Source: Tubulanus polymorphus
Lineage: Eukaryota > Animalia > Nemertea
DNA length: 64,000 nt
Direction: 5' to 3'
NCBI RefSeq assembly: GCF_964204645.1
Contig: NC_134025.1
Span: 4,030,001-4,094,000 of the forward strand
Notes under the pieces: generated by a model
Seen by the model: only the letters and a program-made list of their open reading frames with translations
Told to the model about the DNA's origin: nothing
Databases searched by the model: none
In this document: positions 1 to 36,018 of the stretch, piece after piece
Position numbering within the stretch: the stretch's first letter is position 1
Layout of the letters: each line of letters opens with the position of its first letter
Made by a program: the position numbers and the translations under genes

Positions 1-244
1 TGGTGGTTTCATAATCCACTGCTTCGTTGTGTACATGTTCAGCAAAGAATCCGCTAGAGATTTTGACCAACAAGGACGACATTGTGAAGCTTGCACCGGA
101 GACAAAGAAGGCATTACTGTATAGATAATACTAATGACAGCCATAAATGCTACTAGACCGACAAGTAACAAGCGCAACTTATGTCCGAGTTTATCCCATT
201 CTGGAACCAACTGCCATACTTTTTCCAATAAAGTTTCCGTTTCA
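1..244 (-). CDS. Terminal exon: transmembrane helix plus KASH-like luminal peptide
   Basis: AG acceptor at 246-245. Translates ETETLLEKVWQLVPEWDKLGHKLR-LLLVGLVAFMAVISIIYTVM-PSLSPVQASQCRPCWSKSLADSLLNMYTTKQWIMKPP and runs off the window. This resembles the TM + ...PPPx end of KASH proteins. Confidence 0.85.
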
Positions 245-12200: not shown

Positions 12201-15200
12201 TTTTCGAGTTTAAATCATATTGTGCCATCCGTAGATCCTTTATCAGTTATCAAAGCAGCAACCTTGAAAAAACCCACGCAATCAATTCCTAAAACACCTG
12301 AACCAACGGATTATTCAAGCAATCGAAACTTCAGATGCATTGAATATTCATTTCGGTACTCAGCTATTAAAGAGAGTAAGTTAACCACGAAAATAATGAC
12401 AAGATATATCCAAGTTCCGGACTCTTAAAGCTTCATAAATATCCTCGTAGATATATGAACTGGAAAATTGCATAGTTTTGAGCATGATTTGTTCCTATGT
12501 AGTCTGTAGCGCGTGCATATTGACAAAACATAATCCTGATGTTTGCTAAACATTTGTCACACAAACCAAGTCAATATTAGTTTACAAGAAAATACACTGC
12601 TCACTTATAATATCCACAGTTTGTACGGGTTCAATTCTGCCTTATTTCACACATAAGAACTATGATTTTTTTTTGCGAATATTTTTTTCGACGACACACT
12701 CAGCGATCTATAATCACAGTATACCGGTATAGACAGCGAGCAATACCTGATGATCTTTTAAATAGAAATTTGTCAATAACGGGAGAGTGGAATCAATAAC
12801 AGACTCATTATCCATACATACACGAACAAGACAGTATTCAGTACAGTGAAAGTCAGAATGGTTTATGGTATAATATCGTATCGATAAGAAAAGTCAAGAT
12901 GAGATAGTGAAAAGCCAGTCATTTGGTCTATATAATAGTTGAATATGAGCAGGTAGTGCATGAAACTATCAATCAGATCTACGATTAATAATAATTCTTT
13001 GGCTTCAATACACGTCGGGTATCGCTTACAAACTGAAACATAGTAAACGAATGACCTGCTGAACATACCTGATCTTGAATGAGTGACGATCTGCGTGAAG
13101 ATAAAGGTGAATCAGTCGATGGAGCCTCGACCGAGATTTTGGGAGGATGCGGACCGTGATCGAATGAATCTTCTGAATCGTCGAATGACACCGATCCATC
13201 GGACATCGTCATACTCGTATCGTAATCTACAACGGTCAGTTCGATACAAATCCTTAAATTATCAAAATTAATTTCATCACATAAATGTCGATTACTCACC
13301 ACTACTTCCGAGTACCCTCCGCAGGCGTCTAGGACGGTGTCGAAGTGACATTTTTCTATTTTCGTCTTCGGAAGTTTGCGAACTGATGATTTTATCCACT
13401 TCTGACAAATCTACTTCATCTAAATCAGTCTCCAATAATCCACGTGAATCCTACAACAATGTTTAGATACATTCAAAAGTCAGCAAAATCTCTAGAAGGT
13501 AATAACTGTGAACAAGGTGGAAAGACAGTATTAAGGCATAATGGTATCTAATATTAATAAAAGCTCGGCCAGTGTAGAACGTAAGAAATTAATATCACAG
13601 ATTTTGCCAATAAATCAAAAGTTATCAAACAAGGTATGTTATGTACATTACGAATTTCATAGTATAGATACGGAGCTAAATCTATCATACGGTGTCAAAA
13701 TCTAGGATGTCATCATTAGAATTCAGTCTCTGAAATTTTGATAGATATTTGAAATAATTTGAGCATCAACACGCATACCTTAATGGTCCCGGGAGGCAGC
13801 CATGCGTGAGATGTAGCAGGACTGACATGAATCCGATCTGCTTCCGGTTTCGAATGTTGACTGAGACGATAGGGTGAAGTTTGAACGCCGGAATGTTTAA
13901 ATGCACTTCCTCCATGAGTTTCATCAGAATACGATTTCTCTAATTTGAACCTGACGGATGTCGGTTGGGTTCGATTACTTTCGGTAGAATGAGATCTCAC
14001 GATCGGAATGTTATTACTGTCAGTAACTGATCTCTTGGTCGTTGAATTGTCACCATCAGTGTTCACTAACACTGATCGTCGGACGGGTGGACTGTCGCTG
14101 TCACTATTGTTATTATTACTAGTTAAAGCAGATCGTCTACAAACCGGACTTAAACGCAACTGTACAGGATTCACTTGAGGGACGGTTAATCCAGAGTCCA
14201 GTTTAAACGTGACAGGCCCTTTTTGTTTATTATTGTCTTTCGAGGCTTCAGGTTGGACAGTTATCGGGGATAGATTACGAGGCGTATTTCCTGGTGTATT
14301 GCCTGGAGATATGTGATTCTGTTTCATTAATCTGAAATGAAAAAAAAACAAAGAAATTCTTCACAATACAGCATCAATTGATCGAATATCACGAACATTT
14401 ATAGTTCTAGTGTCATACTGAATGGATAGATGGCCACATAGTACTTAATTCATGGATCGCGTGCTTAGAAATTTGATGATGTCTCATTGATTTGGATTGA
14501 TTACTAACGCATTTCTATTAGTGCTTGATATATTCCAAGCACTAGTTTCAAGTAGCCTTCATCACTGCATCGGACATTAGTAATCACTCAATAGCTTTAA
14601 CTACAAAATTAGACATTTTCTAGCTCTTATAAACTTTAAATTCTTGAAATAGAATTCTCATGCATGATGGATCCGTCCATCATCATAGAATTTCTGCCCT
14701 TCTCATTCCTGTTATTCATCCTGTTTATCTTAGTATATTAGAAATATTTTTGAAACAATGTTTATCGCAAAATCTTGGATTACACTCAATAGGAATTTGA
14801 CAGTGTGGCCTTGAATTATGACATGAAATTATCAAGCAATATCTATCAATGATCAAGACTTCCAATTTGTGGAAATATCCGTTATGTACATCTAAACTGG
14901 GTTTTCGTTTGTCTAGATCTGATCAATCGATTGGTCGAGACACTGATATTGCATGTGGTTGAGACAACTACCGACGAAATACAATATCAATTGTTTCCAT
15001 GGTAGTAGCGTTTATCCCTGAAAATACGTACCGACAGTCGGGAGACTTATCACGGCTTCGATCGCGCAGATTTTGATAATCGGGTGGATTTTTATATTTG
15101 GGCAATAACGTTTTATACTGTTGATCGCTTTCAGCTTTCGATGACCGCGACCTAAAATAAAGTGATAACCGTAATATAAGCCCTTCCAAGAAGAACAACT

Positions 15201-18200
15201 ATGAATAGGCAAAAATAGGCAGCTATTTTTTTATTTTCAGCACATCGAGTAATGAATGTATTGTAATGATACATCGACTACATGTTCCGCAACACAACAG
15301 GACAAGAATGATTTGTTGTCATGTGATGCCAATAAGAAGGGGTTTCGAGACAATAAAACCGTGCTAGAGAGCAGACCGTGTTTGAGTACCTGCTGGGTGT
15401 GTCGAGACCTGTTACTGATTCTGTTAATGATCCTTCAGCATCAAAATCTGAACCTCCTTCTGGTTGCTCGATCAGAATCGATAACTTTCTGTTGTGGCAC
15501 GGTGACGACCTGAAAAATTAGTTTTTTGCTGACATTTGTCGTTGGTGCACCCATTTAGCACTAATCTACAGCCTGCCCTCTAAGCTAAACAAAAACTCTA
15601 CACTAAAACAGGACAAACCAACAGTAATTCGGCGAGACAGGACAAACACAACAGGGTAAATAAAACATTAATGTTTGATATTGCACATACAGCTGAATGG
15701 ATACAGCAGAATTGAACCTGTCTTCATCTCCAGAAGAAACTATGAAAAAGTGTTTCGTTCACGGGTTTTTCTAGTTCTGGAGACTTGAAGGTAATTTGAA
15801 AGACTACATGACGATCTGCAGAAGCTAATGAAATGCAGATTGATGATATGGGATACTACACCACAAAAAATACGACATGCAGATAGATAGGAGGATGTGC
15901 GTGACGCATACAAAATCTTATCATAACATTATCGAATGAATAGCGAATGCGAATGATTTTTAACAAGACAGTTTTCATGTATTGCGAGGCATCAAATTCC
16001 ATTAACACTCTAGCTATATGATGCGGCAACACACTGACAATTCACAACTGAGAACTAGATGATATGCATACAAGATCAGATATTGAGAGAAAATTTCATG
16101 ATTAACCGGTGCTTCACGATGCTTTTAATGGGGTGCATCGATGCAAAACTAACTACACTCATGAGTATTGAATCTTCCTTCGATTTCAACACTGGCTATA
16201 ATGCGAAATAGATTGATAACTATAATTATGACAAGTTCCATTAATAGTTATGTATTTGAGTGGCTTAACTGTAAAACTTGAGTGTATATTATTCAGAAAA
16301 AATTACATTCACGGTCAAAAATGAAATCAGTTATGTGTTAAATGACGTGCAATTAAAATCTATGGTAAAATCATCATACAAACAATAATGATAAACTACA
16401 GACCATAGGTACCACCAGCACTGTGAGGTAGTACTGAGATACCAGCATGATGAGGTACCAACACCCTGAGGTACCAGCAATGCGAGGTACCAATGCTGTG
16501 GGGTACTAGTACTGCGGCTACCAGTACCGTCAGGTACCCGTGCTGTGGGGTACCAGTACCGTCAGGTACCCGTGCTGTGGGGTACCAGTACTGTCAGGTA
16601 CCCGTGCTGTGGGGTACCAGTACTGTCAGGTACCAGTGCTGTGGGGTACCAGTACTGTCAGGTACCAGTGCTGTAAGGTATCACTGAATACATACCATTC
16701 TTCATTATTATTCTCCTCTTCATCATCTTTAACATTGACTTGTTGTTTACTAATAGGTGAATTGTTTGAATCACTAACGGCTGCAAGGTTTGTCATGTTT
16801 GACACACGGTATACAGGCGGTGAATTATTCGTACAAACGTAATGATATGATTCCAAGTTTCGCGCGGTGGCGTACGGCGCTTCCGACGAGTGTTCGTACA
16901 TCGTTTCGGGAATGTTGATTTCCACTGAGGTAGGTTTCGCACCCTTCTCAATCGCTGCCTTAAAACTAGAACTGCGTTCGCGGGTAATCCCGGTTGCCGT
17001 CGTGCCGGGCTCGTGATGAGAAACGGCGACGCTGTAAACGTTATCCGCTCCTGCATAGACCGCCAACAGTCCTTTCCTTTTAGGATTATTGTCTAAACAG
17101 ACAGCGCTCGATGACCGGCACGATAGAACACTGTTACTGTTGTTACATTTGTTTATACCGTACATAGTATCGGTATCGGTTTGTGTTGAACAAGTGACGT
17201 GATTATTGTTTGGCAACAATAGCGGACAAGATCGAGACTGGACGTGATTTGATAGATTCAGTATGCTATTTGACGATGACGATTCCATGTTCTCCAGAAT
17301 GTCCTGAGCAGATGATGAAGTGGCTTTTGGATTGAAACAGTCGAGGGTCAGTGCTTCTGAAACGATACGAAATGTATGAATGCCGTGATATTCTGGCCAT
17401 CTGAACTGATTGCTGCGTTACGAGCGCTTAAAAGAGAGGATGCGAGTTCAAGGTTTTATCAGGAAATAACGCTTAATTGTGGCCATCAAATCATTGTTAA
17501 TAATCATTTGTGACAATCAGAGACAGACGGCCGACAGCTCTGTTATAACAGTTGTTAGTTCGCCCATCGTTTATTAAGCTAATACGCCCTAATTTACCTT
17601 ATTATCTAAAAGCCGGTTTAAAATTTCAAGATTATAACAGGCGAATAACTGATTTACTGTTGTGTTTGGTTTATCTACTATTAGCTGCTTTCTTTTGATA
17701 TATCCTCAGGGAAAAATCGAAGCTATCTGCTTTTAGTCGCCCGTCTCTTATGTATTCCCGTAAGAGTTAATGTAATGCGAGAGACAATGTGAACGCATAG
17801 CAAGTGTGAGGGGACGGATGGAATGGACACGTTAGATTAACTCGTGTAAGTAAAAGGTCATGTGGTACTACTCGATCATCAATTTTTGACACATCGAATA
17901 TAAACTAGTGGGAAACTTTTTTCTGGCCAGAATTCATTTCTAAGTCATATTCTACGCATTTGATGAGGACATCAACGCAACAGCTGTCTGGTGTATTATA
18001 CAGGCTGGATTGTAAATGAAATGGAGACAATTTCACATGAACTATGTGCAACGGGATAATGTATCAAATCCTGGGTGATCTACCGGTAACCAAAAGAGCT
18101 TTCTTACCGGAAAGTTGGACTTGAACGTCACCTAATGACAGATTCTTTGCAGCCTAAAATGAAATGGAAAAATAATTGGCGGATATAAGTCATAACATTT

Positions 18201-21200
18201 TCACCTTACAACGATACAAGCTTTAATTCCATTTTTTTCCAGTAATCATTTCAAAGGCTTAGTGATATTATCGTGTATCCACTGGTAATAACGAGGATGG
18301 CATTCGCACGGGATATTCTCATAAAGACTTCAATTTCATCACAAAATAGAATGCCTTATCTACGTGTAGAGTGCGTGTCAGCCATGTCACAGCACGGAAT
18401 ATCTCATAGTATACACAAACATCGACATCAACATTTTTCATGGAATTTCGCAATCGGCATAATCTAAAGAGTTATACGCTATAAATGCCAATGAGGATTT
18501 CAAAATTGGCTGCGTAATTTGATTTATGAATTTATCACACTTCAATAAATATTCAGGTTCTTAATATAGACACACAGTGGCAATTGAACACTATCGAAAA
18601 TTTACAAGCACTTAAATGAATCTTAATGTTATTTTGATCGCGAAGCTCTAATACCACAGATTCTAGTAAAGCATCTCAGAATTTGTGAATCAATACCAAT
18701 CAAGCCGTAACATTTAAAACACGTCTCGGCGCATCAACGCGAAATTGTATACGGTTGCAACCATGGTTACAACTTCACTTCTCATTGTTGTATCGTAAAG
18801 ACATTTTGAAATTGAAGCGAAAATTTTGACCAGATTTATGAGTAAAAAGTAATAAAACACATGAGAGTGGAGAACATCATGCGTATTATTTTTAAAATGT
18901 GGTGTTAACTGTTCGTATATCATACGTGGAGTGGGATGGAACAAGGCAACTTTTGTTAGTGAACCGGTAGATGAAGTGTCCCCAAATATCAGCAAAATCA
19001 TTCTATGTCTTATTCGATGCACTACCGGTACTTCTAGCCATGAAACTTGTTGGTACTTGAGGAAACAACAGTGATGTGGATGATTTCACCCCTGTATAGC
19101 CCGCGTAGTTAACTTACATGCGCAGCTAATGCAGCCTGTGTCTTGGCAAGTTGAGTTTTTATCAAGCAGATCTCCTTGGTAACTTGGTCCTTGACGGAAT
19201 CAGAAGAGACAGTAATTGGCGTTTCATGCTGGGGAAGAAAAAGATTTTTTAAATTAGCAGTTCAAATTCAGTTTCATAAATGAATTTTGATTCTTCACTT
19301 TTTGTAAATGCCTTTATCCTTAGGTAAAACCTTCTTTATACGAAGTGATGTCAATTTCTGTACAAAAAAGGGTAAAAATAGGATAAAGTACATACCTCCT
19401 CACCGTCTAGCAAACCTTCAGCTTCGATATCTTTTTGAAATAACCGCCAGATATCTTTTAGATCTATCTGATGGGATGAAAGAGCAGCAGCTAATGTTTC
19501 CTAAGAATAAAAGCAAAGTATTTGCATAAACAAGAAAGAATAAATGAATTTTTCGTAATGATATTAAACGTACTCTCTGCTTGCCTAGCGAAGATTCGAT
19601 TACTGTGGTATTTTGTGGTGGTATGGAACGCATTGATTTTATACATCCCTTACACCATCAACTTGTTATGACCCGTGGGAAGGTAATTGATGGCACTAAA
19701 ACTGCAGATAGCACTACTAATGTTCTTACCAAGGGTAGGACAATGACAGGATATGCTAGATAAAGCCTTTGGCTTCAAATCTATTTCGGGAATATTTTAC
19801 TTTGAATCTTAAGACTCAGAATTGATAATTACTAAGAAACTTTTAACTTCCCAAGATGGAGATTATTCTTTGTATTTCTAAAATTCATTTTAACAGTGTC
19901 ACTGTCATGACTGCACCGAATCAGACAAGTTAAAAACTAGACAGTAACAATATAAACAACGACAGTACCGATGTAAAACAGATCAAACCATCATTACTTA
20001 GATTGCGTCTCAGGGTAACTTGATTAAGCAAGTCACATGTGATCAGTTGATGAATATCTCGTCAGTGTAGGAGAGAAAATACTCCATAATGAGAAAGCAT
20101 CGACAATAACTACTACAAGTACGGACTCAACCCGATCTCAGTCAGTCGAGATGCCAGGACCACGAGATAGCAGGAAGCTATGTATTTCCTATCAGGAACG
20201 CCATAAATCATCAACATGGCACGCTTTCCTTAATATTAGATTCGTGGTTTTGAATTAATCATATCAATTGCTTATCTCCATCTACAGCTATAACAAACTG
20301 TATATGATATGTCAGCTAACAGTACCTGGCAGGCGGGATTATATGAAGGGGGACTAACATACCTCGAGTTTAGTTGTGCGAGTAAGTAAATCCCTTGATG
20401 CTGATAATTCCGATTTCACATTTGCCAATTCAGCTACGAGTAAAAACAAAACGCGCCATTAATCAATGAGTTTCTTTATAAAAGATATTACACTGTTTGT
20501 TCTTATAGGCTCGATCTTAATATTTAACAGATCAAAGTTGATAATTCATCATTCTTAGGGAAATTGGTTAATTTCGAGCGTATCCTAATGTTATGTTGAT
20601 ATCATTCATAAATCAACCACAAGAAAGATGTGCGCCTAATAGCAAGACGTTGCCAGCTCATATTCAAGTGAGTGTGTAATCATTCTAAGGATTTGCTAAT
20701 AAGTGGCTGTCAATTTAATGGCATAGTGCCATCGATCAACAAAATCAGTAATACTAAGCCGGCTACACGAGTACATATGTAGAGGAAGAGAGAGAGAGCA
20801 TCATAACTTTCACCGATGAAGTGAAAGTGACGACATTGGTGTCAAGAAACCTTGTTAAAAAAACAGGAATCTGAAATTCCACTAGAGATAAATTTGACAT
20901 TTAACAAGTGATAAACACTGCACATTTTATGCCAGTGTCAGACCCATAACATTGAATAAGCAAATATCGCATAAAATCAATGGTTTATGGATAAAATTTA
21001 TACGGTAAATTGAGATATACCGAGCGTAATAAACCCAATTCACCCCAATATTAACTTGAAGTTTACAGTCGATAAAAAAGGAATGTTTTTTCGCAAAGAC
21101 TGAGCCATTAAGGCCACAACGAGTAAATTATAGGTAAAGAAATCAATTATAATTACTTTGTCCTTTTTCGAGTTGTTCAACTAAATCCAAATGGCCCCTA

Positions 21201-24200
21201 AAAAGAGAGAAAAAAATAAATCAGATCAAAAAAATGGAAAATATGTTTTTGACATTGGAAATGGACATTTGCCATCAATGTTTCTTCAATCTAATCCAGT
21301 GCACTAATGACAGTATCTGCTGCTAATGTCGAGATATACATAATCCATGTCGATCAGTGAAACATGAGTTATCGAAGACATAAAAGACATATGTATGTAA
21401 AGAGCGGAGGAGGAGATGTATTATGAATCATGTCGGACTCTCGGAGCACTCTTATATTTGCAGCTGCCACATATCATATCTGGATATGATAACTGCGGTC
21501 CACGAATGGCTAAATATACAATACAGCATCCAATATTGCAGCCGAGTTCATTCAATTGCAACAGACCGAATCTCTACGACTGAAAGCTAGCGCTATTCAT
21601 CGGAAAGATTCCACCACTGAAGATACTCTCACTTTCTCTCAAAATTTTCATAACAAGTTGCAGGCATTTTCTTATCAGCAGTTATTGGATAATTGGATCG
21701 CGATAAGATTTACGACTTATTAAAGACTGACTTTGTACAGGCGAGATTAATGATCATATATCATATAGACAAACGGAGAAATCTACGCATTTCTATACCG
21801 CAGAAGAATATCAGATTCTTTTTGCTCGTGCGAAGAACAAACCTAAAAGGTCCATCGGGTATAAATATACACTCGATTAGAATCTGATGAAATATAATCC
21901 AATAACAATCCGTTGTTCCGCAAGTTAAGACGGAACTAAAAAAGCGATTCCTGTGCCGGTAGTATCGCGTGCGATCCCAATAGTACAAAGATGATACAGT
22001 TAAAGACGATATTTGAAATATGAATAATTTGTATAGTATGATACTCACCTCGTGTTAGAGTAAATATAAGATGAAGAACATACAGCGTGGGTGTACGTCG
22101 CTTATCCTATAATTGACTGTCACAAACGATACATGTGTATGAAGACAGAGGATTGATTAAAGTGCCTGACCATGTGTCCTGCGAAACCATCTAATTACGA
22201 CTGCAATGCAACAAGTGTACGCTTACATATGCCTCAAGTATGCGCGGATGAATTTGTCGTGGTTTGGAAGATGACGAGGCATGAAATTTAGTCGACCGGA
22301 AAAATCAATTTGTATCAACAGAATATCAAACAGGGTAATACGTCCAGTCTGCTAACGAAAATAATCGCCATACTGGGAAGTGTGGCCCTGGAAAAAATTC
22401 AGCGATTCCGCAATGTTTCAACTGCGCGTGGGTAGAATTATGACAAAAAATTACTGCCGACCGAATACAGCAGTAGAATGAGAGAAATGACTGGTGTTAA
22501 CAACGCCTGTGACACAGTAACACATTCTCAGAGAGAGAAAGACAACACGATAAATCTTATTCTACCATCATTGAAATTCTAGACGGGAATAAAGACGTTG
22601 GATATTGAAGAGAACAGAATTGACTGCTGTCGTGCATAGAGAAAGTGAATAAAGCATTCAATTTTGCCGATACTTTAAGATGTCAATTATTTCCGGTGAT
22701 GCCGAGAGATTTTATGACATTATTAATGCCTTACGGGTATGTTCCTACATCTAGTTTAGTTTGCTCCCGTACTGATTGCCCAAAACGCAAAGCAGTTTAT
22801 TTCTGCAACCTCAATATTTCTGTTTAAATGAACACGGATCGCTGGAAATCGAATGCAAAATAGAAAAGATAAATCCGCGCAATATGCACCTATTTCGAAT
22901 TCAGCGAAGTGTAAGACCGATAAGAGCTGTGGAAATATTCCAGTAAGGCAATTAATCACAATTCACATTAAACAATCTGTGAGCTCATTTAGATTAAGGT
23001 AGCAATATTTGAACAAAGTCACTATAACAATCGCGCAGACGCAGTAGATCATTTATTAAAAATCTACTGATCATCATTCTACGGTTTATTGATACAACTG
23101 ATTGGAAACCAAACTGAGAGGTCAGAATTACGCGTTCGATTCGTAGAGGCTGCAATATGAACGGCGAAGGTCTTTCAAACGTCGCGCGTTCAGCACCGGT
23201 AGATCGACGCCATTTTCCTGACCAGTGCATAGATCAATCTAGAATTATGGCTTAACCGACGACAGAACAGATATTAGGTTCATGTCTCGGTGGGCAACAA
23301 ATTTCCCCGGCTAATCATACTCTTACATATCAATGGATTTCAGCGACGAGTGCAGATTTAGAAATGGAAAATGTGCATCGATAACTCAAAACCTCGGAAT
23401 CTGCCACCACAAGAGGAAAAGGCATTTTCTTAAATGAGGCTTTTGATCAGTTGATCCAAATAAGCTACAGAAGGGTGCTGATTTTGTCAAGATTTTTCTG
23501 TCCAGACAAATAGTGTTGTCACATCAGTGACGAGACGCAACTTGATGAAGGTTGAGATGAAGCAATCAGTTATAACGGTGACAAGGCACCGGCAACTCGC
23601 TGTATGATGAGGCAAAGTGGTCATCCACAACAACAGTAGATCAATATATCACTGGGTTCACAAAATACAACCAGCTACTTCTGTTGCAAATGAACCAGCA
23701 TCATTCGACGAACTAAATTACAAACCGCCATGGCACTTTGTATCGGTTTATAAAGCATACATCATCGGTGGTAGTTAACGCACGGTTTTATGATGTATTT
23801 TCCAGTAAGGTCAGTAATTCACATCGATGGACCGTTGACGTAAGTTATCTAATAGACATGTAGGAATTTGTTAACGCGTAAAAGCGGAGATGATGAATCG
23901 TGTATGCAGAAAAACTCGCCACTTTTCACATTCCTACATCAATAGGGAACGAACCATAAAGAACGAGATATTATACGAAAAATAAAAACGGTACAGACAA
24001 ATCATTATGAATTCACTATACATCAAATAAAATTCAGACAATTTGAATCTGCTGCAGGAATATACTCCGCATCGACAGAAATGTGAACAGTTTCTGAGAA
24101 GTGTGATTAGGACAATCTCGTCTCATCCATCAACCGCGACGAGCCAGAGTCAATCATCAGCTGAGTTGGGAATTTTACAACAGAATCCCGCATCTCAATC

Positions 24201-24722
24201 CTTCTTATAGAGGCTTAATGCAGAGAGTTGACATTATTAACTTTCATCGCTGCAGTAGAAGACAGTGGCGAGATTGTTAGATAAAAACTACCGAACGAAG
24301 TGCGCTAAAAAAACGCATGAAAATAGAGAAAATCTTCACAAAGCTGAAATGTCACAAATGAACGCTGTACGGCGGTTAACATGGAATCAATACTATTAAC
24401 CGTCAACAATCATATCAATTATGTGAGTGTGATTAATTCTGATGAATCAACTAATAGGATTTTTTGCCAGACTACATAAAACGAACATCTTATATTCGTT
24501 GCCTCTGCTAAGCCGCGCTCGGGACAAATGGGGCAATCGATTTTTGTGTCAATATCTCAAATGACGATTTTGATGCAAGCAATAAAGGTAATTTCGAAGG
24601 TGCATGCTCGGCAAACATTATGTATTTCATTGTTTCCTAAAATAACGACCCAACTTTATATGATATACAAACATTTGTGGCTTATCATAGTTGAAATCAA
24701 TGATGGCGTGAAAAATTATGGA

Positions 24723-24818
<96 letters not shown>

Positions 24819-27800
24819 GATGTAGGGAATGGAAGGAAGGTTTGATTGCAGCAATTCTGATGATGAATATTGACTGTTTCAGCCGTTCTAAGTCATCGGA
24901 GAATCAACAATGACAGCTACCGCAAACTGTAAAAACTTTAATAGGAAAAAATCAATCCAATCGAAACCGATGTACAACTTAAAGCGCAGGCTTACTGCGC
25001 AGCTTAAAATTCACAAGAGGCAGGAGATATTGTTGTAAAACCTGCAAGAGAAAAGATTATATCCATTCCAACTCATGTTTTCATTCTCTACAGCAACAGA
25101 ATCTGCTCTTTTCAATTCATTTAATCTGTATAGAATTGCGTTCGTTACTTTACTGTTATCATGAACATCGGCAAAATGAAGATTTGTCGAAAACGCGATG
25201 AAAGCCTAGACGTATCTCATTCAATTGCCTGAAAATCGGAGACTTTTTTTGGTAATATATTTCGCGATCCTAGGCTTACAGAGGAACATGCAAATCTAAT
25301 GAACTGTCAATGTTTTATCGCAGGGATGAATAGCAGCAGGACTCATTGCCCAATATACTATAGCAGATTTTCACATGGTCGATTCTACACGATACTAATG
25401 AGCTCAATATTTCCCACTGACCGTCACACATCCAATAGAATTGAGATAGACCACACAGCTCTATATCAGACAAGAGCACATGACGAAACTTCTAATAAGG
25501 CAATACTTCCAGTCTAGCTATCATTTTTCCATCAGCTACGGGTCATGTTATCAAAACATAAGCAAATCTGACAAGGTGCAAGATCAATATTTGCAGATCT
25601 TTTCCCCACAAATTGCTCGCGTACTGGACAAATTATTTAGAATCCATCAAATCTATACGACTGATAGATATGGTTTTGCAGTATCGCATAATAGATGCTA
25701 GTTTGGAGTAGCGGCTATTCTGATGTAGAATGATTACTCCGATATATCCAACTCGGGCTAGCCATTATTCACCAGTAGGTTGAGGGGCGTTGAAGACTTG
25801 TACCGGTCTACGTGGCAATGATACTTGAACATGGGATCTCTAATCAGCAGCTGAAGGTTACAACTATGGGGCTATGGCATTTCCATTTCAAGGATTGAAG
25901 CTGCTACACGCGAACGAAGTCCCTCGTCTTAAAATTTATCAATATTCCAATGATTCTATCTATTAATCGAAATTTCAGAGACAATCAAATCTATCGGCAA
26001 CAGTTTCTCAATCTCTAGTGATTTCCGTTAGAGAGAAGAGATAACTGACGAGATATGAATTGATTCATTACCATAACAAAAACCTGATGAACGTGAAGAT
26101 TAATATTGGTATTTAAACGGAGCGCTATCTGGATTCCAGTCAAACAAGTCCGTACCTAGAACGGGCGAAATTTGGAAATGGCGAAATCACGTCTCGCTAA
26201 ATTGGCTACAGATAGTTATGATTTACCCCGCAAGATGTCACCATGAGTATTTTATCCTTAAATTCATATCTAAATGATAGATTTATCATGAGTCCCTGGA
26301 TGTTAATTATCTAAAAAATTATGATGATTGCAGTTTATCATATATCTGAACACATCGATCTATTGTTAATTCTGGGACATCTTCAAAGAGATTAGAATGG
26401 ATATATACTCTGTAAACAACACACCCAACAGACAGATAGATAATAATCTGTTAGCCTATACAGCAATACAGAAATTATATGATATCTGAAAACTACATGT
26501 ATATTAATCAGGTTGATGATGATTGGGGAGCATCGGAGTGACAGGTAGATGTCATTTCAATTGATTTCATACTGCAAAGTACGTTTTAGAACGGACCTGG
26601 ATTTAGTTTCTGTCCACACAGACAGATTTAGCCCATTCCAAAATTTGGAACAGACCTGGATCGGTATTCTAGGTCGCTCTAGGAACGGACTTATTTGGAA
26701 CAGATTTTTTGCTAGTGTGCACGCTTGGTCCGTATCAAATCGGAACGGGCCAAATTTAGACCATTATTAATAACATATGGGCACGTACCTTATAATACAT
26801 TCAGGTACAAATATAATCTGAAATACCGAGAAACTTATCGCCTTGTGTACGGTTTGACCAATATTTCTTATAGAGACAATCCATAAATCATGTTACCAGA
26901 GAAAGTTTTGAAACTGCCATTGACAACGTAATGATGGATGTGATGTGATGGTGGAATATAATGATAAAGCACATAAAGCTTTATACAATCAGTCTAACAA
27001 CTTAGAACAAAAGCAAATATCGCGGAAACTTGTGGCTTTTAGCGAAAATATATAACTGTCATCTACTACAACATTGGACATGATTCTGCTTGTAATGAAC
27101 AACATCGTAACCTGACCTGTCTTCTCCATTTGTTAATTCTCTGTACTTTTGGTCTGTTGTTAAGTCATCAGGCTGCCTATGATGAAGATAATAATATGAG
27201 AAACTTCCAAAAATCTGATGGAATCAAACTTTGAACGTATGTTTTGACGTCGTCAATGTAATTCTTCCTTCAGGAGAGAAGTTATCTTAAAAATCAACTC
27301 ATGTTCGCCCCGTTCTGTCACTTTCTATATCGCGATGTGAACATTTCATAACAGGAAATGTGAAAACGGGAAGCTTATTGAAGTTTTAATCCAAAAGGAT
27401 CAAACTAACAAACGATTTTTATTGGCTGAATTTTCTAAAAGACTAAGGGAGCAGGTCCCGCTTAATCCTGGTCAGTTTAATCTAGATTTCGACCTTATTC
27501 TGATGCTACATCTATCTATGATCCATCTATAGATACATATGTGTAATGCAGATTTTTTCATTGGACCCAAATGATCCGGTTTAAGCAGGGTATACCATAA
27601 ATAGTAGTACATACATAGTACGTAGTTCGAAATGAAGTGCTCCGTAAAACTCCACTGTGAAAAATGGTCTCTTCATTGACTAAGGCTAACTAAGCTAAAT
27701 TGAATCAGTTTCCCCTACTTGACAGATAGTCCCTCTGCCCTGTGATAATCACTATAAGTTCAAAAATACTTTCAACTATTGATGTCAAATGAGGTTGCCA

Positions 27801-30800
27801 TAGCAACTGCTCGCTGTGATGGCAAAAACTTGACGGAAGAAAAAATTATTTCCGAACACAAAACTTCTTTCCGATATCAAGTGTATTTTTAGTTATGTCT
27901 AATAATCTCTTAGCTAAACAATAGGTGTCAAGCTTTATGCTATTGTGCATCTATAGAGATATGATTCGTTTTGTTCGATGCAAAAATCTGGTGATCACTT
28001 ATTACGGTACGAGTATAATTTCTACAAATGAATTATGCATTGGAAGTGAATTTTCTCACATCAGAAATACCAAAGGCAAATGAAATGAAATGCTAGTGAT
28101 TTCTATAGGTGAGTACAGCCGTTGTCTAAGCTATTTTCATTCAAATTATCAATTCATGCAAGAGGTGTTTAAAATAACATTCATGTAGTATTTACCCGAA
28201 GTCATCGACGGATTGATGAATTTGATCAAATACTTAACCACGGGTTTTCTTATCGGTAGCACCTACAGCCAACTAACTATCTACATCATTTCTGAATCCC
28301 CACAGATAGACGATTGCCTCACAATAATCAAAACTACATCAACCCATGATCAAATTAATCAGGAAATATACCACAATATAGCACATGAGCATTAGCTCGC
28401 TGGTTTTTTTTCTATATCATTGCCCGTGGAAAGATTACTCTTCTCCTCACAAATACTAGTCCCATTAGACATCACGCTACCGAACTAAATAAGAGGAAAT
28501 GACACACACGTTCGTTCTTTCGCGGCGGAGAGAAAACCGGAAATATTTCGACGAAAATAAGAGAAAAATAACAGCCGCATCTTACCCGATATACTGTCGT
28601 GATACGCAGTTTCCCATGTTTTCAGCACAACTCACTGCAGACCCATCATTACAGTAATCCGAGGAGCATCGTCGTCATACACCGTGGATGTTCACATCAT
28701 CTTCACTCGGTAACGACTGGGATACCTTTTTCTCGGGAGCGGAATCTGATCGCGAAGTAGGATTATACAGAAATGCCCGATAAATGTTACTCGATATATT
28801 CTCGATACGGCGGCGGCGTCGTACACGCGAAAATAACGTAGCCGTTTATTCGCAACTTCACGAGTTTAATCGGTCAGCAAACGCTTTTTAAATCCGGTCG
28901 AGTCCGAATTCATCGGTAAATCACTCGATCGAGCAGATTTTTATGAATGCGACTGTAACAGTGATACCTCTCCTCGTCAACGCACACTACAGCACACAAC
29001 ATTGACAGTGGCTGAGAACACTTTGAACTTATCAAACACACTGACACAGTGGCAGGGCTCATCTGGACATTACTGCAATAAGTTCTCATTAATACCTACT
29101 AATCACAGTTTTTGGTGCATCGGAATAGAACTGAACAAAACACGTATCAAATGAGGATGCATTTTGCGCGAAATATGAGGTTAATTTATTTCAAATTTAT
29201 CAATGAGCGCACTGCCTGGATCAGACACACGGTACCTGCCACATAATTAATTAACTACAAAGCCCGAGTTGATGTGTGATCAGTACATGAAGCGAGAGAG
29301 AAAGAGAGAGAGAATGAGAAAGCGTGAGGGGGAGAGAGGACATTATTAACCTGATGTGATCGAGAAAATGGAACGAAATAGAACGCAACCTGTGAACTCA
29401 TAAACTGGATCGAATAAAAAAACACAATTACAGTTGTAATTACTGCGTGAGATGTGATTGCACCGGTTAATTCTAGTTTTCAGGAAATGACTCTAAATCC
29501 CTGCGGATCCTTTTTAACCCTATGAATAATGCTAATGTAATCATTTACGTAAGTAGACTCCGTATACTGTCTGCTATGCCAGTGGAAATGCTTCCGACTT
29601 AGTTACATTTTTCTATACGTACCTAAAAGCGAGTCGCTGGTATATGGAATCAGAAGAAGTTATCAGACAGCCGAGAGCCAATACGACAATAAAGTCTGTA
29701 TTCGACCTCCTGTTATTAGATGTGACATGTAGGAAATCGTCTCGGGGAGAGACATACATGCCATGAGGCAAATGACAATGCTCTATGAACTCCACAAGCA
29801 TTTCGAGATACGCCTGCAGCTATTTCGTAAGACAAGAGTACAATTTGATGAAGCTTTGATAAAATTAGATCACGCAAGAGTTGCAATCATCACGATTCTA
29901 ATAACCTAAACTAACATCGTAAAATATTGTTTATCTAAGAAATATATTTATCGTAAGAAATTATCGACCATATTATCCCAACCGTTTCATAAGCCCGAAC
30001 ATGTATGATTCGTTCGGATACAAGTTAGACTTGACAAGGCTAAGAGGGCTTAGAGGTTAAATGAATGTATAAACTATGCCTTTAAGCCCCCTCCCCCGAC
30101 CTGACATTTTTTTCCAACATTTTTTTCCAACATACGAGGCGAACTGAATATTCAATGAGGTATCGAGGGATCATCTGTATCTATGCGAAAATGAGCAAAA
30201 GTAGAGATCAATAATCGACTAGATTGCGCATAACATTTGACAGACGTTATCCGATTTATCAATTTCAACGGAGTAAGAATTTAATGAGAGGGATGATCAC
30301 TTACAATTCACCGGGCAACCGAGGAGACAACAGTCTGACATGCAATACCGATATCACTGGCGAATGTATCTAAAGAATCAACTGTATGTATGTAGGCCAT
30401 TAACGAAATCTCCAATGAACGCTTTGCGAGGTTGAATGTGAAATGGCGTGCCTTCGAACGAAGCTACCAAAATATTTTCACAGCAGACTGTCTGCTCAAA
30501 TGATCTATAAATGATTCGATGTCGAATGTGTTTGCGGTCACGGAAGTTGTCTGTCATTGTCTATCAAAGCTGAATTGTGTGATTCATGAAGAGAAATGTA
30601 TCTATGAACACACCGTCTCCCCGCTGGTCTACTGGTTGCATGAAAGAAACCAATAACATCGCATTCGAAAAGTAAATTGTGGTAGAACAGAAATCGAAAA
30701 CTCTCTCTATGGTTATGCTGTTTTTTTCGATGAATACACACGCCGGTAGTTCCGTCATTATTTTATGATTGGTAATTTGCCGGCCGTGCCATTATCAACG

Positions 30801-33800
30801 AGAATGATAGCGAAACCAGGTGAAATACCACGTAAAAAGAGCGCCGTATTATTACTTCGCTTTAATGATAAAACATGATGATGTCTAAAGATTTGTTGAT
30901 GTGTTTTGGATCTAAAAAATCTTCTTTTCTAATTTAACACGCATATTTACTCAATTATATACCTCTCCCTCAATCACTGATTTACTGCTTATTAATCATG
31001 GCTGAATTCTGCAGCTAATTATCTTTGCCGAAAGTCAGACATCTCGATTTTAACGATTTAATGACAATGACAAATGGTGCATATTTTTATTGACGCATCA
31101 AACACGATATGCTAGCAGTTTTTGTATCTGTTGCTTTGTGACATTCGGATCATGGTTCCCCGAGACTAACCCTGTTGGATTGTTCCTTCGATTAAATGTC
31201 TACCATTTAGCTTTTTACTTCATCATACAAGTATTCATGGGGGTATCAGTATCGGAATCAAAAAGAATTTGACTCAATCATGATGGAAAATACCTTTTGG
31301 GCTATCAAAAACTTTAACAATACGCATGTATAAAGACTGGTTAGAGATTCATCTATATTGAATATCAGTTATACTACCTGCGAAGTTGACAGATGTGCTG
31401 ATGTAGACGCCATCTTTCCTGCACTGCTTGATCCTGTAATTTGTGTAATCTGTCTTTCTCTGAATTCAAACACTCCTCATTTGCCTCCAACTAAAATATA
31501 ATATAACTCTACTACATAAAGCTATCAGCCTCTTAATGCAATTAAGCAGTGCAATAGTACCTTTTGTTTAAGAGAATTTTTTTCTTGTTCTTCATTATTT
31601 AGCTTTTGACACAACTGAACGAGATTCTCCTCAAATGTATCACTCGTTAGGAATGAAGCATCATCCAGATGTTCTCTGAGCATTGTGTCGTAATGCTCAT
31701 TCATACATTTACCCTGATCTGAAATATTCACAAATTATACATACATTTCTATTCCGATTCGATAAGTATAAAAGTACTCAAAGTATTCTCAAAGCACGAT
31801 GTCATGAACTGCATCGATATCTAGGTGCTATCAAAGGGAAAACTGTCTTTTTTCATAACCGGTTTGCACGAAATCTATGCATTGTTTAGTCATGAAACTT
31901 GGCATGTACACAGAGGAATAGTTTCTCATGGTTACGACAATAATCTTATTTGGGTCCAGGGTCTATTTTCCGAATTCGAATTGTGGGGTGTTTGGCTTTG
32001 AGATTCAATTACAATATGGTCATATAGACGTCCATGATCACAATAATAAATTTCTTAACTGAGCCAGTGGTATCCCTATATGGGGCACCGTGAACCAGTC
32101 ACTCAGTACTGGGTGAACAAATTTCTAAACAAATATCTAGTGTTATGCATAGTAGGATCCTGGAATAAAAGGGCATGTCGAGAAAGGGTTAGACACTCTT
32201 CAGGCTTCTGGGTAAAATTGCTTGAGTTTTAATTGGAAAGGCCAATCAGGATTTTGTCACACTGACATTTTAAGTCATCAAGATTTAGGAAGGGTGTATT
32301 CCGACTCTCTTTGGAATCCACCTTAACCCAGCCTTGCATTTTCTGCTTAGCTCCAGTGAAGACTCATCAATTTTCCGACCCACCGAAGATAGGTATTCTG
32401 CAAGTACATATATACTAGTATCATTTGAGCTTGGATCAAAATGATCTTTTGTGCCCGGTTTCATAGACTCAGTATCAAAGTTTCCCCCAGGGGTAATCTT
32501 CAACGTGGGTGACAACCATTATAGAAACAATAAAAAACGATAGTAATATCGTCATATTTCCCACATCTTAGAAACTCAGCCCTGTGTAATTCTCATCCAC
32601 TACACAGAAAATGTACTTACATTTCATTTTCTTCATTGCACGCGCTAACTTTTGAACCCTGGAAAACGTAATGAAATGTATCGTGTAATAATAATTTTAT
32701 GTAAGCTTAACCTGTAATCAATTTTTATTTTGCCAGTATGAACCATATGGTTTGTACACATATGGCTTAGACATCTGATCCAGTTGAACAGTCTTCGCAG
32801 TAAAATATGTCTATACAACTACATATATAGACAAAGACATAGACATATAAATGCTAAGACACTTGCCATTTATCTGACTCTTGTTTATCGCTCGCAAGAT
32901 TTGAAAATCTTTCGGTGAAGTTTTTCATCTCTTCATCGAGTTTTATCTTGAAGATTTCGAACGTCTTATCTGAATCTACCTGCGGAAAGCCATCGATCAA
33001 TTTGTTGAGTTCATCTAATATCGATGATTTCCGTTCGTTAAACTGACTGGCCTAAAATAAAACAGAAATTTCTTATATGGAGTCTTCAAACGTTGACATT
33101 TTGAACCTGTTGGGTTATCATCATTACCAATTTTGTACTAAGCTTGCTCGATTCATCAGCTATCAACGCTTTCAACAAGTCATCGGGAGGATCATCGAAA
33201 ACTACAGAATCATCCAGTAATTTGGCGAATGAAACTTTATCACATAACGGGGACGGAAGTGTGGCTTCATCAGTAAATATCTATAAAATACACAAATATT
33301 TATGTTGAAACTGTAGATTATTTAGCGATTAAATCATATTTTGAAGTGGTTTGAATCTTACCACATTTTTTATTTCAGACAGCAATGAAGGTATTGCAGA
33401 TTGGACGGGAGTGCTGACAGCTGCTGGACCTGTTGCTAAATGGACGGCTTTTACAGGAATCAATGATTGATCTGCATCGAACTCATTGTCTTCATCACTC
33501 ATTTCAGGTGCAATCATTTCCATAGACAGTGATTTACTATTAAAATATCAAATGCTTCTCAGTACATTTTCTACAAAATAACATCAGCAAATATTCTGAA
33601 TGGATGAATTTGAAATACCTGCTCATATCTTGCCGCGCTTCCATGAGCTGTTCTTCTAAGTAGTTTTTCTCTGAATTCAGTGCCTTGAGATAAAAATGAA
33701 TAAAATTTTGGTTAAAATCCATTTCAGAGAAATTACGGATTTGGTACTTAGGAAACATGAACTTACTTCATTTTGACGGCTCAATTCATGGACGACTTGT

Positions 33801-36018
33801 TCTAAATCTTCATAAAGCATAGTTTTCTAAAACGAAACGTTAAAAACAATCTGGCATATAGTAATTACAAGGACTCTGAAGAAGAATGTGACTCAGCGTT
33901 AATCACCTCAGCCATTTTAGTATCATGTTCTTCTTTCAACACTTCAGCTTCTTCACACCTTTCCTGTAAATTTTACCCAATATCTCATCGTAGTATACAT
34001 TTCTATAGATGATGAATAAAATAAGTGAATACAGAATACAAGCGGAATACCTTATATTCAACAAGAGATGACTGAAGTTCTTTCTGTTGATCAAAAGCAG
34101 ATTCTAATTCTTCATTCATCGTACGTAGCTGAAATAAGATTCATATTCATTAAATGAACCCGCCAAATTACCCTTCTCTTTACAAAAAGTGAGAAATATA
34201 AAACAAAACCTTTTCTATGTTCTCTTGTTCTTTGGAGATAAGACGAAGATTCTCTTTTTCACTTTCTCGAAGTTTATTTTGCACGTGCTGAAGATTCTCT
34301 TCAAGAGAGGTAATATTTGACTTCAGTTCTTCATTTTCTTTGCGTACACTCTGTAGTTTATCTTGTAAGTTGTTCAGACTGAAAAAACGTATATAATGCG
34401 TTACATTTAAGAGTTGAATTGATACTAACAAGAACTAATGAAAGAACAAACCTCCAGAGCTTTTTCTGAAAATCTTCAACATCAGCGGTTAAACGTGAAA
34501 CATTATCCTCGCTTGATTCAAGTTGTTTTCGAAGTTTCAGATTTTCTTCACAAACCTTTCGATGCTGTGTCTCAAAAAAATCAAGTCTATTTTGTAATTC
34601 TGTGCTGTCCCTAAAGAGATATTTTTCAAATTTCAAGAACCGGCAATGGAATATTGTAATTAAACTAACAGGTTTTTGTTATCGTAATCAACTTACGTTT
34701 CCATAATAAACCTATCTCCTGCTGCTCCTGATGCTTCTAAACTCCCATATGTAAAGTTAACAATATCAGATCTTTCCAGCAAACCTGAATAAAAAATCTT
34801 ACATGAAATGCTTTTTCGAGATGTTTACCTTTTTCAACTATAAAATAAAAACCTGTTTTCCATTGTGAAAGATAAAAAAAAAACACATTGAAAATTCATG
34901 AATGCAGCGAGGTAAAATTCTATACACATGTACAAGTCAAAATACGAACTGATATTTCAGACTGAAGCAAGAGTGGTTTAAGCGCTTACTTTCATTAGAT
35001 TTCTTCAATTCACATTTGATCGGTGAAAGATGATGAACACGCGGCCTTCGCTTGATCACATTTCCACAAGGAGATGAAATAGCGTTGGCTAACGACGTCA
35101 TAGCATTCGAGCTCAATGAGGCCTCATCATCGCTTTCACAACTCGAACCACTATTACATGAAACAAAAAAAATGTAAATTCATAGAATGAAAAATGCGTG
35201 TTTCAATCCAATAACTGCTAATTCCAGATTCAACAGTCTTAAGTACATTCACATAAATTGAATAATACAAATTATAATTCCATTATAATTATGTAGAAGT
35301 GGTAGTACAAATAATAGTAGTTAGATGCATAAGCCAATTCTGCCCTTTCATCCTCACAGTTCTCTTCGATCATTACGCAAGTGCAGTGTTTCTGGAGTTA
35401 CTTCTAGACCTTAAAAATTTGCATGTAGCTTGTAGCGAAACTATAGTGTTACCTCAGTGACTTAGAGAACGGCATATCTTCATACCATTCCAGGAATCCC
35501 TTTCTGTAAACAAATATATCGATCTCGACATCGTTATCATCTGGATCCAGGTTCAGTTTTAATCCATCGTAATCATGAACACAACACGCCTACCAACAAA
35601 TAATAAAACAGTATTACAAGCTTTTAATATTCATCACTAAGGGTGCATAGTTAGAAACACTTACATCGCAATAGTGACGCAATCTATCTATAATACTGGA
35701 AACTCGTACAAGTCCAGTATTTTCTTCATCACACATAAGAAACAACTCATCGATTTTATCTACATCGGATGGTGATAATAGTTTACACGATGTTCCGCCG
35801 TCATCCTCAAATTTTGGACACAATTCTAACATCGGCGACTTAGATTGTAATACGGGCGACTCTGATCGCGGCGACTCCAAATGAGGTGACTCCGAAAAGT
35901 AGATATCCGATTGGGGTGACGGTAAAACCGATGAGTCCGAGTGGTATATATCCGATTGGGGCGACGGCAGGATTGGCGACTCTGAGCGAGATATCTCCAA
36001 TTCAGCCGACTCTGACAT
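1..36018 (-). CDS. LRMP: LRMP/IRAG + KASH5-like nuclear-envelope/ER tail-anchored protein (EF-hand-like, coiled coils, MRVI1 domain, TM, KASH-like tail); 41 coding exons, >=1958 aa, 3' end truncated by the window
   Basis: Phase-consistent exon chain (minus): 36018-35665, 35589-35453, 35150-34990, 34784-34697, 34610-34452, 34378-34210, 34128-34051, 33963-33907, 33826-33767, 33683-33619, 33536-33362, 33280-33128, 33051-32867, 32658-32621, 31718-31561, 31490-31378, 27176-27112, 20433-20363, 19500-19396, 19228-19118, 18153-18108, 17356-16696, 15509-15390, 15151-15032, 14331-13779, 13450-13300, 13226-13069, 10818-10708, 10483-10287, 6366-6336, 5821-5681, 5478-5347, 4593-4496, 4402-4350, 4026-3968, 3656-3585, 3109-3035, 1301-1186, 1088-987, 911-780, 244-1. 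Total 5874 nt with no stops. MRVI1/LRMP-type sequence EKFAMLSLSFKTDRLTLDQRVQLQERARDMAEQN...TARVSSRAELHGAVQQEGRLSRAIEIMVQHVE. The gene symbol is the closest family label only. Confidence 0.85.
4350..6366 (-). CDS. Exons encoding the MRVI1 (IRAG/LRMP) coiled-coil domain
   Basis: Five exons (6366-6336, 5821-5681, 5478-5347, 4593-4496, 4402-4350) translate to AENLSEQELEEKFAMLSLSFKTD...ETIKQAYERKDQELEETRQLLQENR, matching the recalled IRAG1/IRAG2 core. Confidence 0.9.
7238..7281 (-). CDS. Candidate alternative first exon for a short isoform (MAFHRVVLQAMKSR/S)
   Basis: ATG at 7281 with an upstream in-frame TAA; donor AG|GTAAT. Phase 2 matches acceptor 6366 and reads into the MRVI1 domain. Confidence 0.55.
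8133..8307 (-). CDS. Candidate alternative terminal exon (KASH-less isoform ending ...DGRTLV*)
   Basis: Acceptor TTTCATCGGTAG|A at 8307 is phase-compatible with donor 10287. 57 open codons to TGA at 8135-8133; minus-strand AATAAA at 8102-8097. Confidence 0.45.
11618..12013 (-). CDS. Candidate alternative first exon (MSRMVRSEISDYEDY...EPRTDQ)
   Basis: 132-codon ATG-started open frame ending in a strong CAG|GTAAG donor. Phase 0 fits acceptor 10818. Confidence 0.65.
16408..16680. repeat. Intronic minisatellite, 16-bp subunits / 32-bp higher-order unit
   Basis: Repeated GGTACCAGTACTGTCA-GGTACCCGTGCTGTGG units; homogeneous on the right, degenerate on the left. Confidence 0.95.
24727..24814. repeat. 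(TA)44 microsatellite
   Basis: Perfect TA run. Confidence 0.98.
26576..26792. mobile_element. Degenerate non-autonomous element (MITE-like) with internal repeats
   Basis: Ends AAAGTACGT...ACGTACCTTA are imperfectly inverted. Internal recurring GAACGG, GACCTGGAT and AAATTTGGAA motifs; a related fragment lies at ~26145-26178. Confidence 0.35.
27794..27807. promoter_or_regulatory. Perfect RFX X-box (GTTGCCATAGCAAC)
   Basis: Exact match to the canonical 14-bp X-box, in the intron between the MGNC first exon and exon 27176-27112. Confidence 0.65.
28586..28617 (-). CDS. Alternative first exon encoding MGNCVSRQYI(G), an N-myristoylation/palmitoylation-type N-terminus
   Basis: AAACATGG Kozak context, upstream in-frame TGA, donor GG|GTAAG. 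Phase 2 matches acceptor 27176, giving MGNCVSRQYIGQPDDLTT... Confidence 0.7.
32659..32866 (-). other. Non-canonical GC-AG intron
   Basis: Donor TG|GCAAGT, acceptor TTTTCCAG. This donor preserves the frame (DK-W-VQKLARAMKKMK); the nearby GT at CAA|GTGTCT does not. Confidence 0.75.
35453..36018 (-). CDS. First coding exons: Ser-Pro repeat region plus KASH5-type EF-hand-like domain
   Basis: IDELFLMCDEENTGLVRVSSIIDRLRHYCD / LKLNLDPDDNDVEIDIFVYRKGFLEW resembles the CCDC155/KASH5 EF-hand_9 pattern (FxxCDxxxTGxV...LDP...D...W). Confidence 0.8.

What the first reader, a model, noticed from the sequence alone, without database searches (positions are those of the whole stretch)
28586..28900. Lipid-anchored isoform: MGNCxS N-terminus plus C-terminal TM/KASH, a candidate two-membrane tether
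Seen: a 32-nt coding first exon MGNCVSRQYIG with a strong Kozak context, short upstream ORFs and a phase-matched donor; it replaces the EF-hand/coiled-coil half. Known: MGxxxS is the N-myristoyltransferase consensus, and an adjacent Cys is commonly palmitoylated, which targets plasma or ciliary membranes. Inference: a ~1250-aa largely disordered protein anchored at both ends could bridge plasma or ciliary membrane to ER or nuclear envelope and hold IP3R at contact sites. I know of no such isoform described for this family.
Basis: partly seen in the sequence, partly recalled or inferred. Interest (0 to 1): 0.85.

Follow-up and report, generated by a model that had tools for sequence, protein, structure and literature searches.

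The report
Ancient lipid-anchor exon in IRAG/LRMP gene
An invertebrate gene for a calcium-channel partner protein carries a tiny exon-like sequence, matched by protein starts in spiders, crustaceans and insects, that likely serves as an alternative start, swapping the protein's predicted motor-binding half for a predicted fatty-acid anchor, so this form would be fixed at both ends and may tie the endoplasmic reticulum to the cell surface.

Summary
The minus-strand gene is an invertebrate IRAG/LRMP (MRVI1-family, fue-like) gene. The 32-nt exon (28617-28586, MGNCVSRQYIG, phase-2 GT donor) joins stop-free to the downstream exons (1262 or 1282 aa, one C-terminal TM), bypassing the EF-hand/coiled-coil half. 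A CpG peak lies just upstream. Among the best 150 family representatives, 6 start MG[NS]C (spider, mantis shrimp, damselfly, three hemipterans), all without EF-hand or KASH_CCD. In bed bug the unique segment is exactly 11 residues, as here. Scored against those six N-termini, this exon ranks 1 of 1581 ATG peptides in the window. No RNA run was listed, so splicing here is untested; no other non-arthropod protein showed the motif. Myristoylation and palmitoylation are predicted only. The two-membrane tether is plausible (about 0.4) but untested. The same acylation pattern takes RNF11 to endosomes, lipids could insert into the ER itself, and PPx/KASH is kept in only 2 of 5 TM-bearing arthropod cases. 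Nothing supports cilia. Verdict: a probably real, conserved protostome isoform, not found in my literature searches; new variant of a known family.

The parts
28586..28617 (-). Coding part of the candidate alternative first exon, MGNCVSRQYIG (Gly2, Cys4, Ser6), phase-2 GT donor
   Evidence: ranks 1 of 1581 ATG peptides against six arthropod N-termini and has GTAAG at +32
28632..28913 (-). Four short upstream ORFs (15, 2, 9 and 5 codons); a weak competing phase-2 donor at 28636 inside the last one
   Evidence: whether they lie in the transcript depends on an unknown start site
28651..28950 (.). CpG-rich patch (o/e 2.05, highest of 36000..400), promoter/5'UTR-like
   Evidence: promoter role inferred
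31378..36018 (-). 16 coding exons of the long form: EF-hand-like region and KASH5-type coiled coil, one GC donor at 32867; bypassed by the MG exon
   Evidence: weak single-exon Pfam hits EF-hand_9 E=0.0089 and KASH_CCD E=0.00042, below cut-off; Lineus ortholog passes KASH_CCD
27117..27176 (-). 60-nt phase 2-2 exon, first possible acceptor for the MG exon; skipped in P0001
   Evidence: no homolog match for its peptide, but Lineus aligns across it without a gap
21157..21197 (-). Second possible acceptor exon (phase 2), used by P0001
19118..19228 (-). Exon for a short conserved helix that follows the MG start in the arthropod proteins too
   Evidence: alignment; helix 69-106 in the model of the spider protein
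16696..17356 (-). Large exon with conserved SCP..TQT and R.RSSSF motifs in the predicted disordered linker
4496..5821 (-). Three exons of the MRVI1 coiled coil (IP3R-binding region in vertebrate IRAG1)
   Evidence: Pfam MRVI1 above cut-off in each exon; function from PMC10298018 section 5
3035..3109 (-). Exon with RRAS motif, candidate PKG/PKA site after the coiled coil
   Evidence: phosphorylation inferred
1..244 (-). Last exon: single TM helix and 38 luminal residues in the window, cut by the window edge; P0001 ends KPPT (39 residues)

Best explanation
This invertebrate IRAG/LRMP gene holds a 32-nt MGNC exon-like sequence, matched in motif and length by arthropod orthologs, that likely acts as an internal first exon and would replace the predicted dynein-binding EF-hand/coiled-coil half with a predicted myristoyl (Gly2) plus palmitoyl (Cys4) anchor, so that the tail-anchored ER/outer-nuclear-membrane protein would reach across a predicted disordered linker to the plasma membrane and would hold IP3 receptors near the cell surface. 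Steps: (1) exon, phase and stop-free model: shown; (2) same kind of N-terminus in six arthropod protein records: shown; (3) transcription and splicing in this animal: inferred, about 0.85; (4) myristoylation: predicted, about 0.85 given step 3; palmitoylation about 0.65; (5) ER/ONM tail anchor and IP3R binding by the MRVI1 coiled coil: inferred from vertebrate IRAG1/2; (6) anchoring in trans at the plasma membrane: inferred and the weakest step. The promoter choice would thus switch one gene between a KASH5/fue-like dynein adaptor and a contact-site calcium regulator.
For: Exon anatomy and shuffles. MG[NS]C starts in 6 of the best 150 representatives against 0.02 expected from composition (not independent, one arthropod ancestry): Parasteatoda X6, Oratosquilla, Hetaerina, Macrosteles, Lygus, Cimex X2, spread over chelicerate, crustacean and insect branches. 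All six show only Pfam MRVI1, no EF-hand_9 or KASH_CCD. Cimex X2 differs from X1/X3 in exactly residues 1-11, the window's MG form differs from its long form in residues 1-11, and Oratosquilla aligns to 5 long crustacean forms from residue 12-13. Linker: FoldIndex<0 for 72% of residues; in the AlphaFold model of the spider protein 686 of 941 residues have pLDDT<50 (low-depth alignment). A random-coil estimate gives 21-25 nm end to end (scaling law recalled), in the range usually given for ER-PM gaps (recalled). KASH5 EF-hands bind dynein (PMC10071310 passages). Vertebrate IRAG and LRMP N-termini act on plasma-membrane HCN4 from an ER anchor, and the authors suggest ER-PM junctions (PMC13131473, PMC9251338 passages).
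Against: No transcript evidence here. The annotated protein of this genome lacks the exon and its cluster has 1 member. No MG[NS]C start in any non-arthropod among 308 proteins fetched, including 4 Lineus isoforms, molluscs, echinoderms, hemichordates and lamprey (clusters were only partly listed and 150 of 553 hits were seen), so convergence is not excluded. The window has one Cys and one basic residue in its first 15, a weaker plasma-membrane signal than the two-Cys arthropod versions. Gly2/Cys4 acylation takes RNF11 to endosomes with extra sorting signals (PMC7697665 passages). Myristoylated ER membrane proteins such as Lunapark stay in the ER (PMC3817238 abstract). Three MG[NS]C records (Lygus, two Macrosteles isoforms) lack a TM, so the lipid anchor can occur without a second anchor.
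Confidence: 0.42

Rival explanations
1. The isoform is real and acylated, but the lipids insert into the same ER or nuclear membrane as the tail anchor, pinning the disordered N-terminus down to control oligomer state, ER shape or IP3R clustering.
For: Myristate alone has no membrane specificity (established knowledge). Lunapark is an N-myristoylated ER membrane protein whose G2A mutant loses ER reshaping. The Jaw1 N-terminal disordered region controls oligomerisation and stacked ER (PMC7804115 passages). Only one Cys and little basic charge here.
Against: Cys4 is kept in 7 of 7 species and a second Cys in 6 of 6 arthropods; dual acylation usually traps proteins on post-Golgi membranes (established knowledge). 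A linker of about 850 residues to the coiled coil is not needed for a cis anchor.
Confidence: 0.22
2. It is a two-membrane tether, but the partner membrane is Golgi, endosome or lysosome, placing IP3R at ER-endolysosome contacts.
For: RNF11 is myristoylated on Gly2, palmitoylated on Cys4 and sits on early and recycling endosomes (that it begins MGNC is recalled). IRAG2 affects Golgi ribbon structure (PMC10298018 passage).
Against: RNF11 needs added di-leucine signals for endosomes; the reported trans partners of this family are plasma-membrane channels.
Confidence: 0.16
3. The window's exon is a dead or chance intronic motif, or a convergent look-alike, and is not spliced in this animal.
For: Not in P0001; not seen in other lophotrochozoan records; donor only middling and four upstream ORFs could suppress initiation.
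Against: Rank 1 of 1581 with a donor at exactly +32, right strand, right intron; 11-residue length match to bed bug; CpG peak; 0 of 2000 shuffles.
Confidence: 0.12
4. The exon is spliced, but its purpose is only to supply a start codon for a dynein-free, LRMP/IRAG1-like short form; any acylation is incidental.
For: Vertebrates split the same halves into KASH5 and LRMP genes (PMC3787381 passages); several mollusc short records begin with unrelated N-termini.
Against: Gly2 and Cys4 persist across lineages while residues 5-11 drift, which a mere start exon would not need.
Confidence: 0.08

Closest known systems
Zebrafish futile cycle/Lrmp and mammalian KASH5 (CCDC155)
   Same: Long form has the same layout: EF-hand-like region, KASH5-type coiled coil, MRVI1 domain, TM and PPx tail.
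   Different: The MG form drops the dynein-binding half and gains a predicted acylation motif; no such fue or KASH5 isoform was found in my searches.
IRAG1/MRVI1 and IRAG2/LRMP/Jaw1
   Same: MRVI1 coiled coil, disordered N-terminus, ER tail anchor, 39-residue lumen as in Jaw1, RRxS site, N-terminal isoforms.
   Different: No acylated N-terminus is described in the passages read; vertebrate N-termini reach the plasma membrane by binding HCN4. The linker here is far longer (about 850 residues before the coiled coil).
Arthropod MRVI1-domain proteins starting MG[NS]C (XP_071044233, XP_076038944, XP_071452888, XP_054266231, A0A146MET5, XP_014240896)
   Same: Motif, about 11-residue unique segment, no EF-hand/KASH_CCD, same downstream helix and SCP..TQT motif.
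   Different: Uncharacterised database models; second Cys at position 8; PPx tail kept in 2 of 5 TM-bearing cases.
RNF11; Lunapark
   Same: Gly2/Cys4 dual acylation (RNF11); N-myristoylation on an ER integral protein (Lunapark).
   Different: Unrelated families; neither is a long two-ended tether.
Single-chain ER-PM tethers (Ist2, STIM1, junctophilins, E-Syts) and the Vac8-Nvj1 pair (all recalled)
   Same: ER anchor, long flexible linker and a distal membrane-binding end; junctophilin-2 is recalled to use palmitoylation.
   Different: They bind through polybasic, MORN or C2 modules, or split the anchors over two proteins; none recalled uses an exon-encoded N-terminal myristoyl/palmitoyl anchor opposite a tail anchor.

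Membership tests
IRAG/LRMP (MRVI1) family | MRVI1 coiled-coil domain (PF05781) | tested here: met
   three exons above cut-off; P0001 E=8e-50
IRAG/LRMP (MRVI1) family | Single C-terminal TM, type II topology | tested here: met
   one hydrophobic stretch, windows 1220-1233 of 1282; topology inferred
IRAG/LRMP (MRVI1) family | Binds IP3 receptors | not testable with these tools
   inferred from vertebrate IRAG1
fue/KASH5-type dynein adaptor (long form) | N-terminal EF-hand pair plus KASH_CCD coiled coil | tested here: inconclusive
   single exons hit both models below cut-off; the Lineus ortholog passes KASH_CCD and aligns over the long form at 37%
fue/KASH5-type dynein adaptor (MG form) | N-terminal EF-hand pair plus KASH_CCD coiled coil | tested here: not met
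   those exons lie upstream of the MG exon; 0 of 6 arthropod MG proteins hit either model
KASH proteins | TM, short lumen, terminal PPPX-like motif | tested here: inconclusive
   lumen 39 aa ending KPPT from P0001, two prolines only; no Pfam hit on the last exon; SUN binding untested
N-myristoylated proteins | Met-Gly start with Ser/Thr at position 6 | tested here: met
   M1 G2 N3 C4 V5 S6; sequence motif only
N-myristoylated/S-palmitoylated proteins | Lipid actually attached to Gly2 and Cys4 | not testable with these tools
   needs labelling or mass spectrometry
Membrane contact-site tethers | Engages two different membranes at once and changes contact extent | not testable with these tools
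   only geometry estimated
Alternative first exon | Capped transcripts and junction reads | tested here: inconclusive
   no RNA holder listed; CpG peak, no upstream acceptor and homolog isoform pattern are indirect

The most novel reading that the evidence does not exclude
Probability: 0.35. Interest if true: 0.85.

Novelty: new variant of a known kind. Interest (0 to 1): 0.63.

Why it matters
If true, it adds a lipid-anchored member to a family thought of as ER/nuclear tail-anchored regulators, gives invertebrates a candidate device for placing IP3 receptors at membrane contacts, and suggests that the reach to the plasma membrane seen for vertebrate IRAG/LRMP (via HCN4) is an old function once met by a lipid anchor. 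The versions ending in PPx would be candidates for a direct plasma membrane-to-nucleus link in one polypeptide. It is cheap to test, since the same start exists in bed bug, Lygus and house spider records and needs only two point mutants.

Tried and rejected
No whole genome was held. Sequencing runs: 3 listed, no RNA holder listed; laying them showed continuous genomic-type cover and no joint at 28586, which says nothing on expression; a second lay did not give the bases past the window edge. A single-exon homolog search found only P0001; a profile search aimed at non-arthropod MG forms returned 3 proteins, none new with MG. ESM Atlas gave no usable hit for P0153 1-160. Cluster listings for 30 proteins added only further Macrosteles MG isoforms. 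Earlier scan findings: none. Considered and rejected: an internal cassette exon (no acceptor near, in-frame stop upstream); use of the 28636 donor (score 3.7, near the bottom); ciliary targeting (no evidence). The paper on junctophilin-2 palmitoylation was not held and a contact-site review had no passage on it, so that point is recalled. The tree cannot separate one origin with unrecorded or lost isoforms from convergence, because absence of MG in a record is not absence in the gene.

Full report
Setting. The window is animal DNA. The finding lies in a minus-strand gene from 36018 to the window edge. Three exons at 5821-4496 each pass the Pfam MRVI1 cut-off. A protein annotated from this genome, P0001 (1345 aa), maps exon by exon onto the locus. 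Its nearest relative is a Lineus longissimus protein, 58% identical over the domain and its sister in a tree (98/95). I built a 44-exon long model that translates without a stop (1988 aa): EF-hand-like region, KASH5-type coiled coil, long linker, MRVI1 coiled coil, TM, luminal tail. This is the fue/Lrmp layout described in PMC3787381 (passages).

The observation. The ATG at 28617 (gaaaacATGG) opens MGNCVSRQYIG and meets a GT donor after 32 nt, in phase 2. The preceding long-form exon also ends in phase 2, so the MG exon can replace the first 717 residues. Both downstream acceptors fit (27176 gives 1282 aa, 21197 gives 1262 aa, no stops); P0001 uses 21197 and lacks the MG exon. Four short upstream ORFs end before the start. 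The donor is middling: 34 of 43 model donors score as well or better, and it is 5th of 257 GTs in its intron. No acceptor within 130 nt upstream is credible, and CpG o/e peaks at 2.05 over 28950-28651, the highest in the gene (median 0.96), as expected of an unmethylated promoter (inference). The full feature set arose in 0 of 2000 shuffles, partial sets in 11, 15 and 112; these criteria were set after seeing the exon.

Independent support. A search of 1.84 billion representatives with the conserved domain gave 553 hits, of which the best 150 were seen. Eleven start MG and six start MG[NS]C: Parasteatoda isoform X6, Oratosquilla, Hetaerina, Macrosteles, Lygus and Cimex X2. All six match only MRVI1 in Pfam. 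After the MG start they share with the window a short helix and an SCP..TQT motif, and two share R.R.xSF. Cimex X2 is identical to X1/X3 from residue 12 on; the window's MG form joins its long form at residue 12; Oratosquilla aligns to five long crustacean proteins from residue 12-13 (two further crustacean records gave no alignment). So an 11-codon swap-in N-terminus recurs. Using only those six N-termini as a profile, the window's exon ranks first of 1581 stop-free ATG peptides on both strands (score 16.3, next 13.3) and is one of two with GT[AG]AG at +32. These records are database models; their RNA support was not checked. They stand for one arthropod ancestry, not six events.

Against. 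No RNA run was listed for this DNA, so splicing is untested. Among all 308 proteins fetched, the 12 with MG[NS]C come from those six arthropod species; none was found in four Lineus isoforms or in mollusc, echinoderm, hemichordate, lamprey or fish records. Clusters absorb isoforms and were only partly listed, so this is weak. Only Hetaerina and Oratosquilla keep a PPx tail; spider, leafhopper and bed bug end soon after the TM; Lygus and two Macrosteles isoforms have no TM. The window's peptide has one Cys, while all six arthropods have another at position 8.

Mechanism. Shown: exon, phase, model, homolog pattern. Predicted: Met removal, myristate on Gly2, palmitate on Cys4, by the NMT consensus (established knowledge) and the RNF11 precedent (PMC7697665 passages). 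Inferred from vertebrates: ER/ONM tail anchor and IP3R binding by the coiled coil (PMC10298018 passages and section 5); loss of dynein binding, since KASH5 uses its EF-hands for that (PMC10071310 passages). The linker is predicted mostly disordered (72% FoldIndex<0; 686 of 941 residues under pLDDT 50 in the spider model) and would span about 21-25 nm as a coil. I commit to a trans tether at the plasma membrane (0.42), helped by reports that IRAG and LRMP N-termini act on HCN4 from the ER (PMC13131473, PMC9251338 passages) and that IRAG sits in IP3R nanocomplexes controlling TRPM4 (PMC8557268 passages). Rivals: cis anchoring in the ER as for Lunapark (PMC3817238 abstract; PMC7804115 passages), 0.22; tether to endosome or Golgi, 0.16; not expressed or convergent, 0.12; start exon only, 0.08. 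Ciliary targeting has no support.

Novelty. Ten full-text searches were run. In one search none of 25 listed papers (of 65) holding IRAG and MRVI1 contained 'myristoylation'. In (20 of 1,173 listed; 25 of 41 listed) one paper held both a family term and 'myristoyl', and that was a reference title about Stbd1. No listed paper (15 of 15, listing only) concerned an insect ortholog. PMC13082882 (passages) shows that acylated alternative N-termini are a known device in other genes; PMC13604761 (passages) added nothing. The library lacks most subscription papers, including the original MRVI1, IRAG and fue reports, and no supplements were read, so an earlier mention is not excluded. The isoforms already exist as uncharacterised database entries.

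Verdict. Real feature, probably a conserved protostome alternative first exon encoding a lipid anchor; new variant of a known family; tether function open. Interest 0.63.

Noticed in passing
window 32867 (minus strand): The long form needs a GC-AG intron (TG|gcaagt); the annotated P0001 starts just downstream of it, suggesting the annotation split the gene there.
   Followed up: partly
window 12013-11618 (minus strand): A 132-codon ORF with an ATG and a strong phase-0 donor, absent from P0001 and without homolog match: a possible third start or cassette exon.
   Followed up: partly
window 36020: The long form's ATG (36018) follows an acceptor-like AG, implying an upstream non-coding exon.
   Followed up: no
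P0143, P0252, P0246, P0248: Hemipteran isoforms without a TM; Lygus ends YSVV and Cimex X3 ends KSVI, resembling class I PDZ-binding motifs (motif recalled).
   Followed up: no
P0145, P0025: An Argonauta short form and an Acanthaster long form start with hydrophobic/polybasic peptides (MLSRLFGRKSK, MSFLFSPKKG) that might be other membrane-binding N-termini.
   Followed up: no
window 39700-45600 (minus strand): Upstream gene with an SH3 domain (Pfam), JIP1-like by recall.
   Followed up: partly
window 48300-55400 (minus strand): Multi-EF-hand gene (Pfam), EFCAB6-like by recall.
   Followed up: partly
window 61932-63269 (plus strand): 445-codon open frame with no Pfam hit.
   Followed up: partly
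window 26200-26780, 32100-32500, 280-400, 16480-16680: Intronic repeats: high-depth dispersed elements and a short tandem array after the large exon; (TA)n runs near 24730-24830 and 43800-44070.
   Followed up: no
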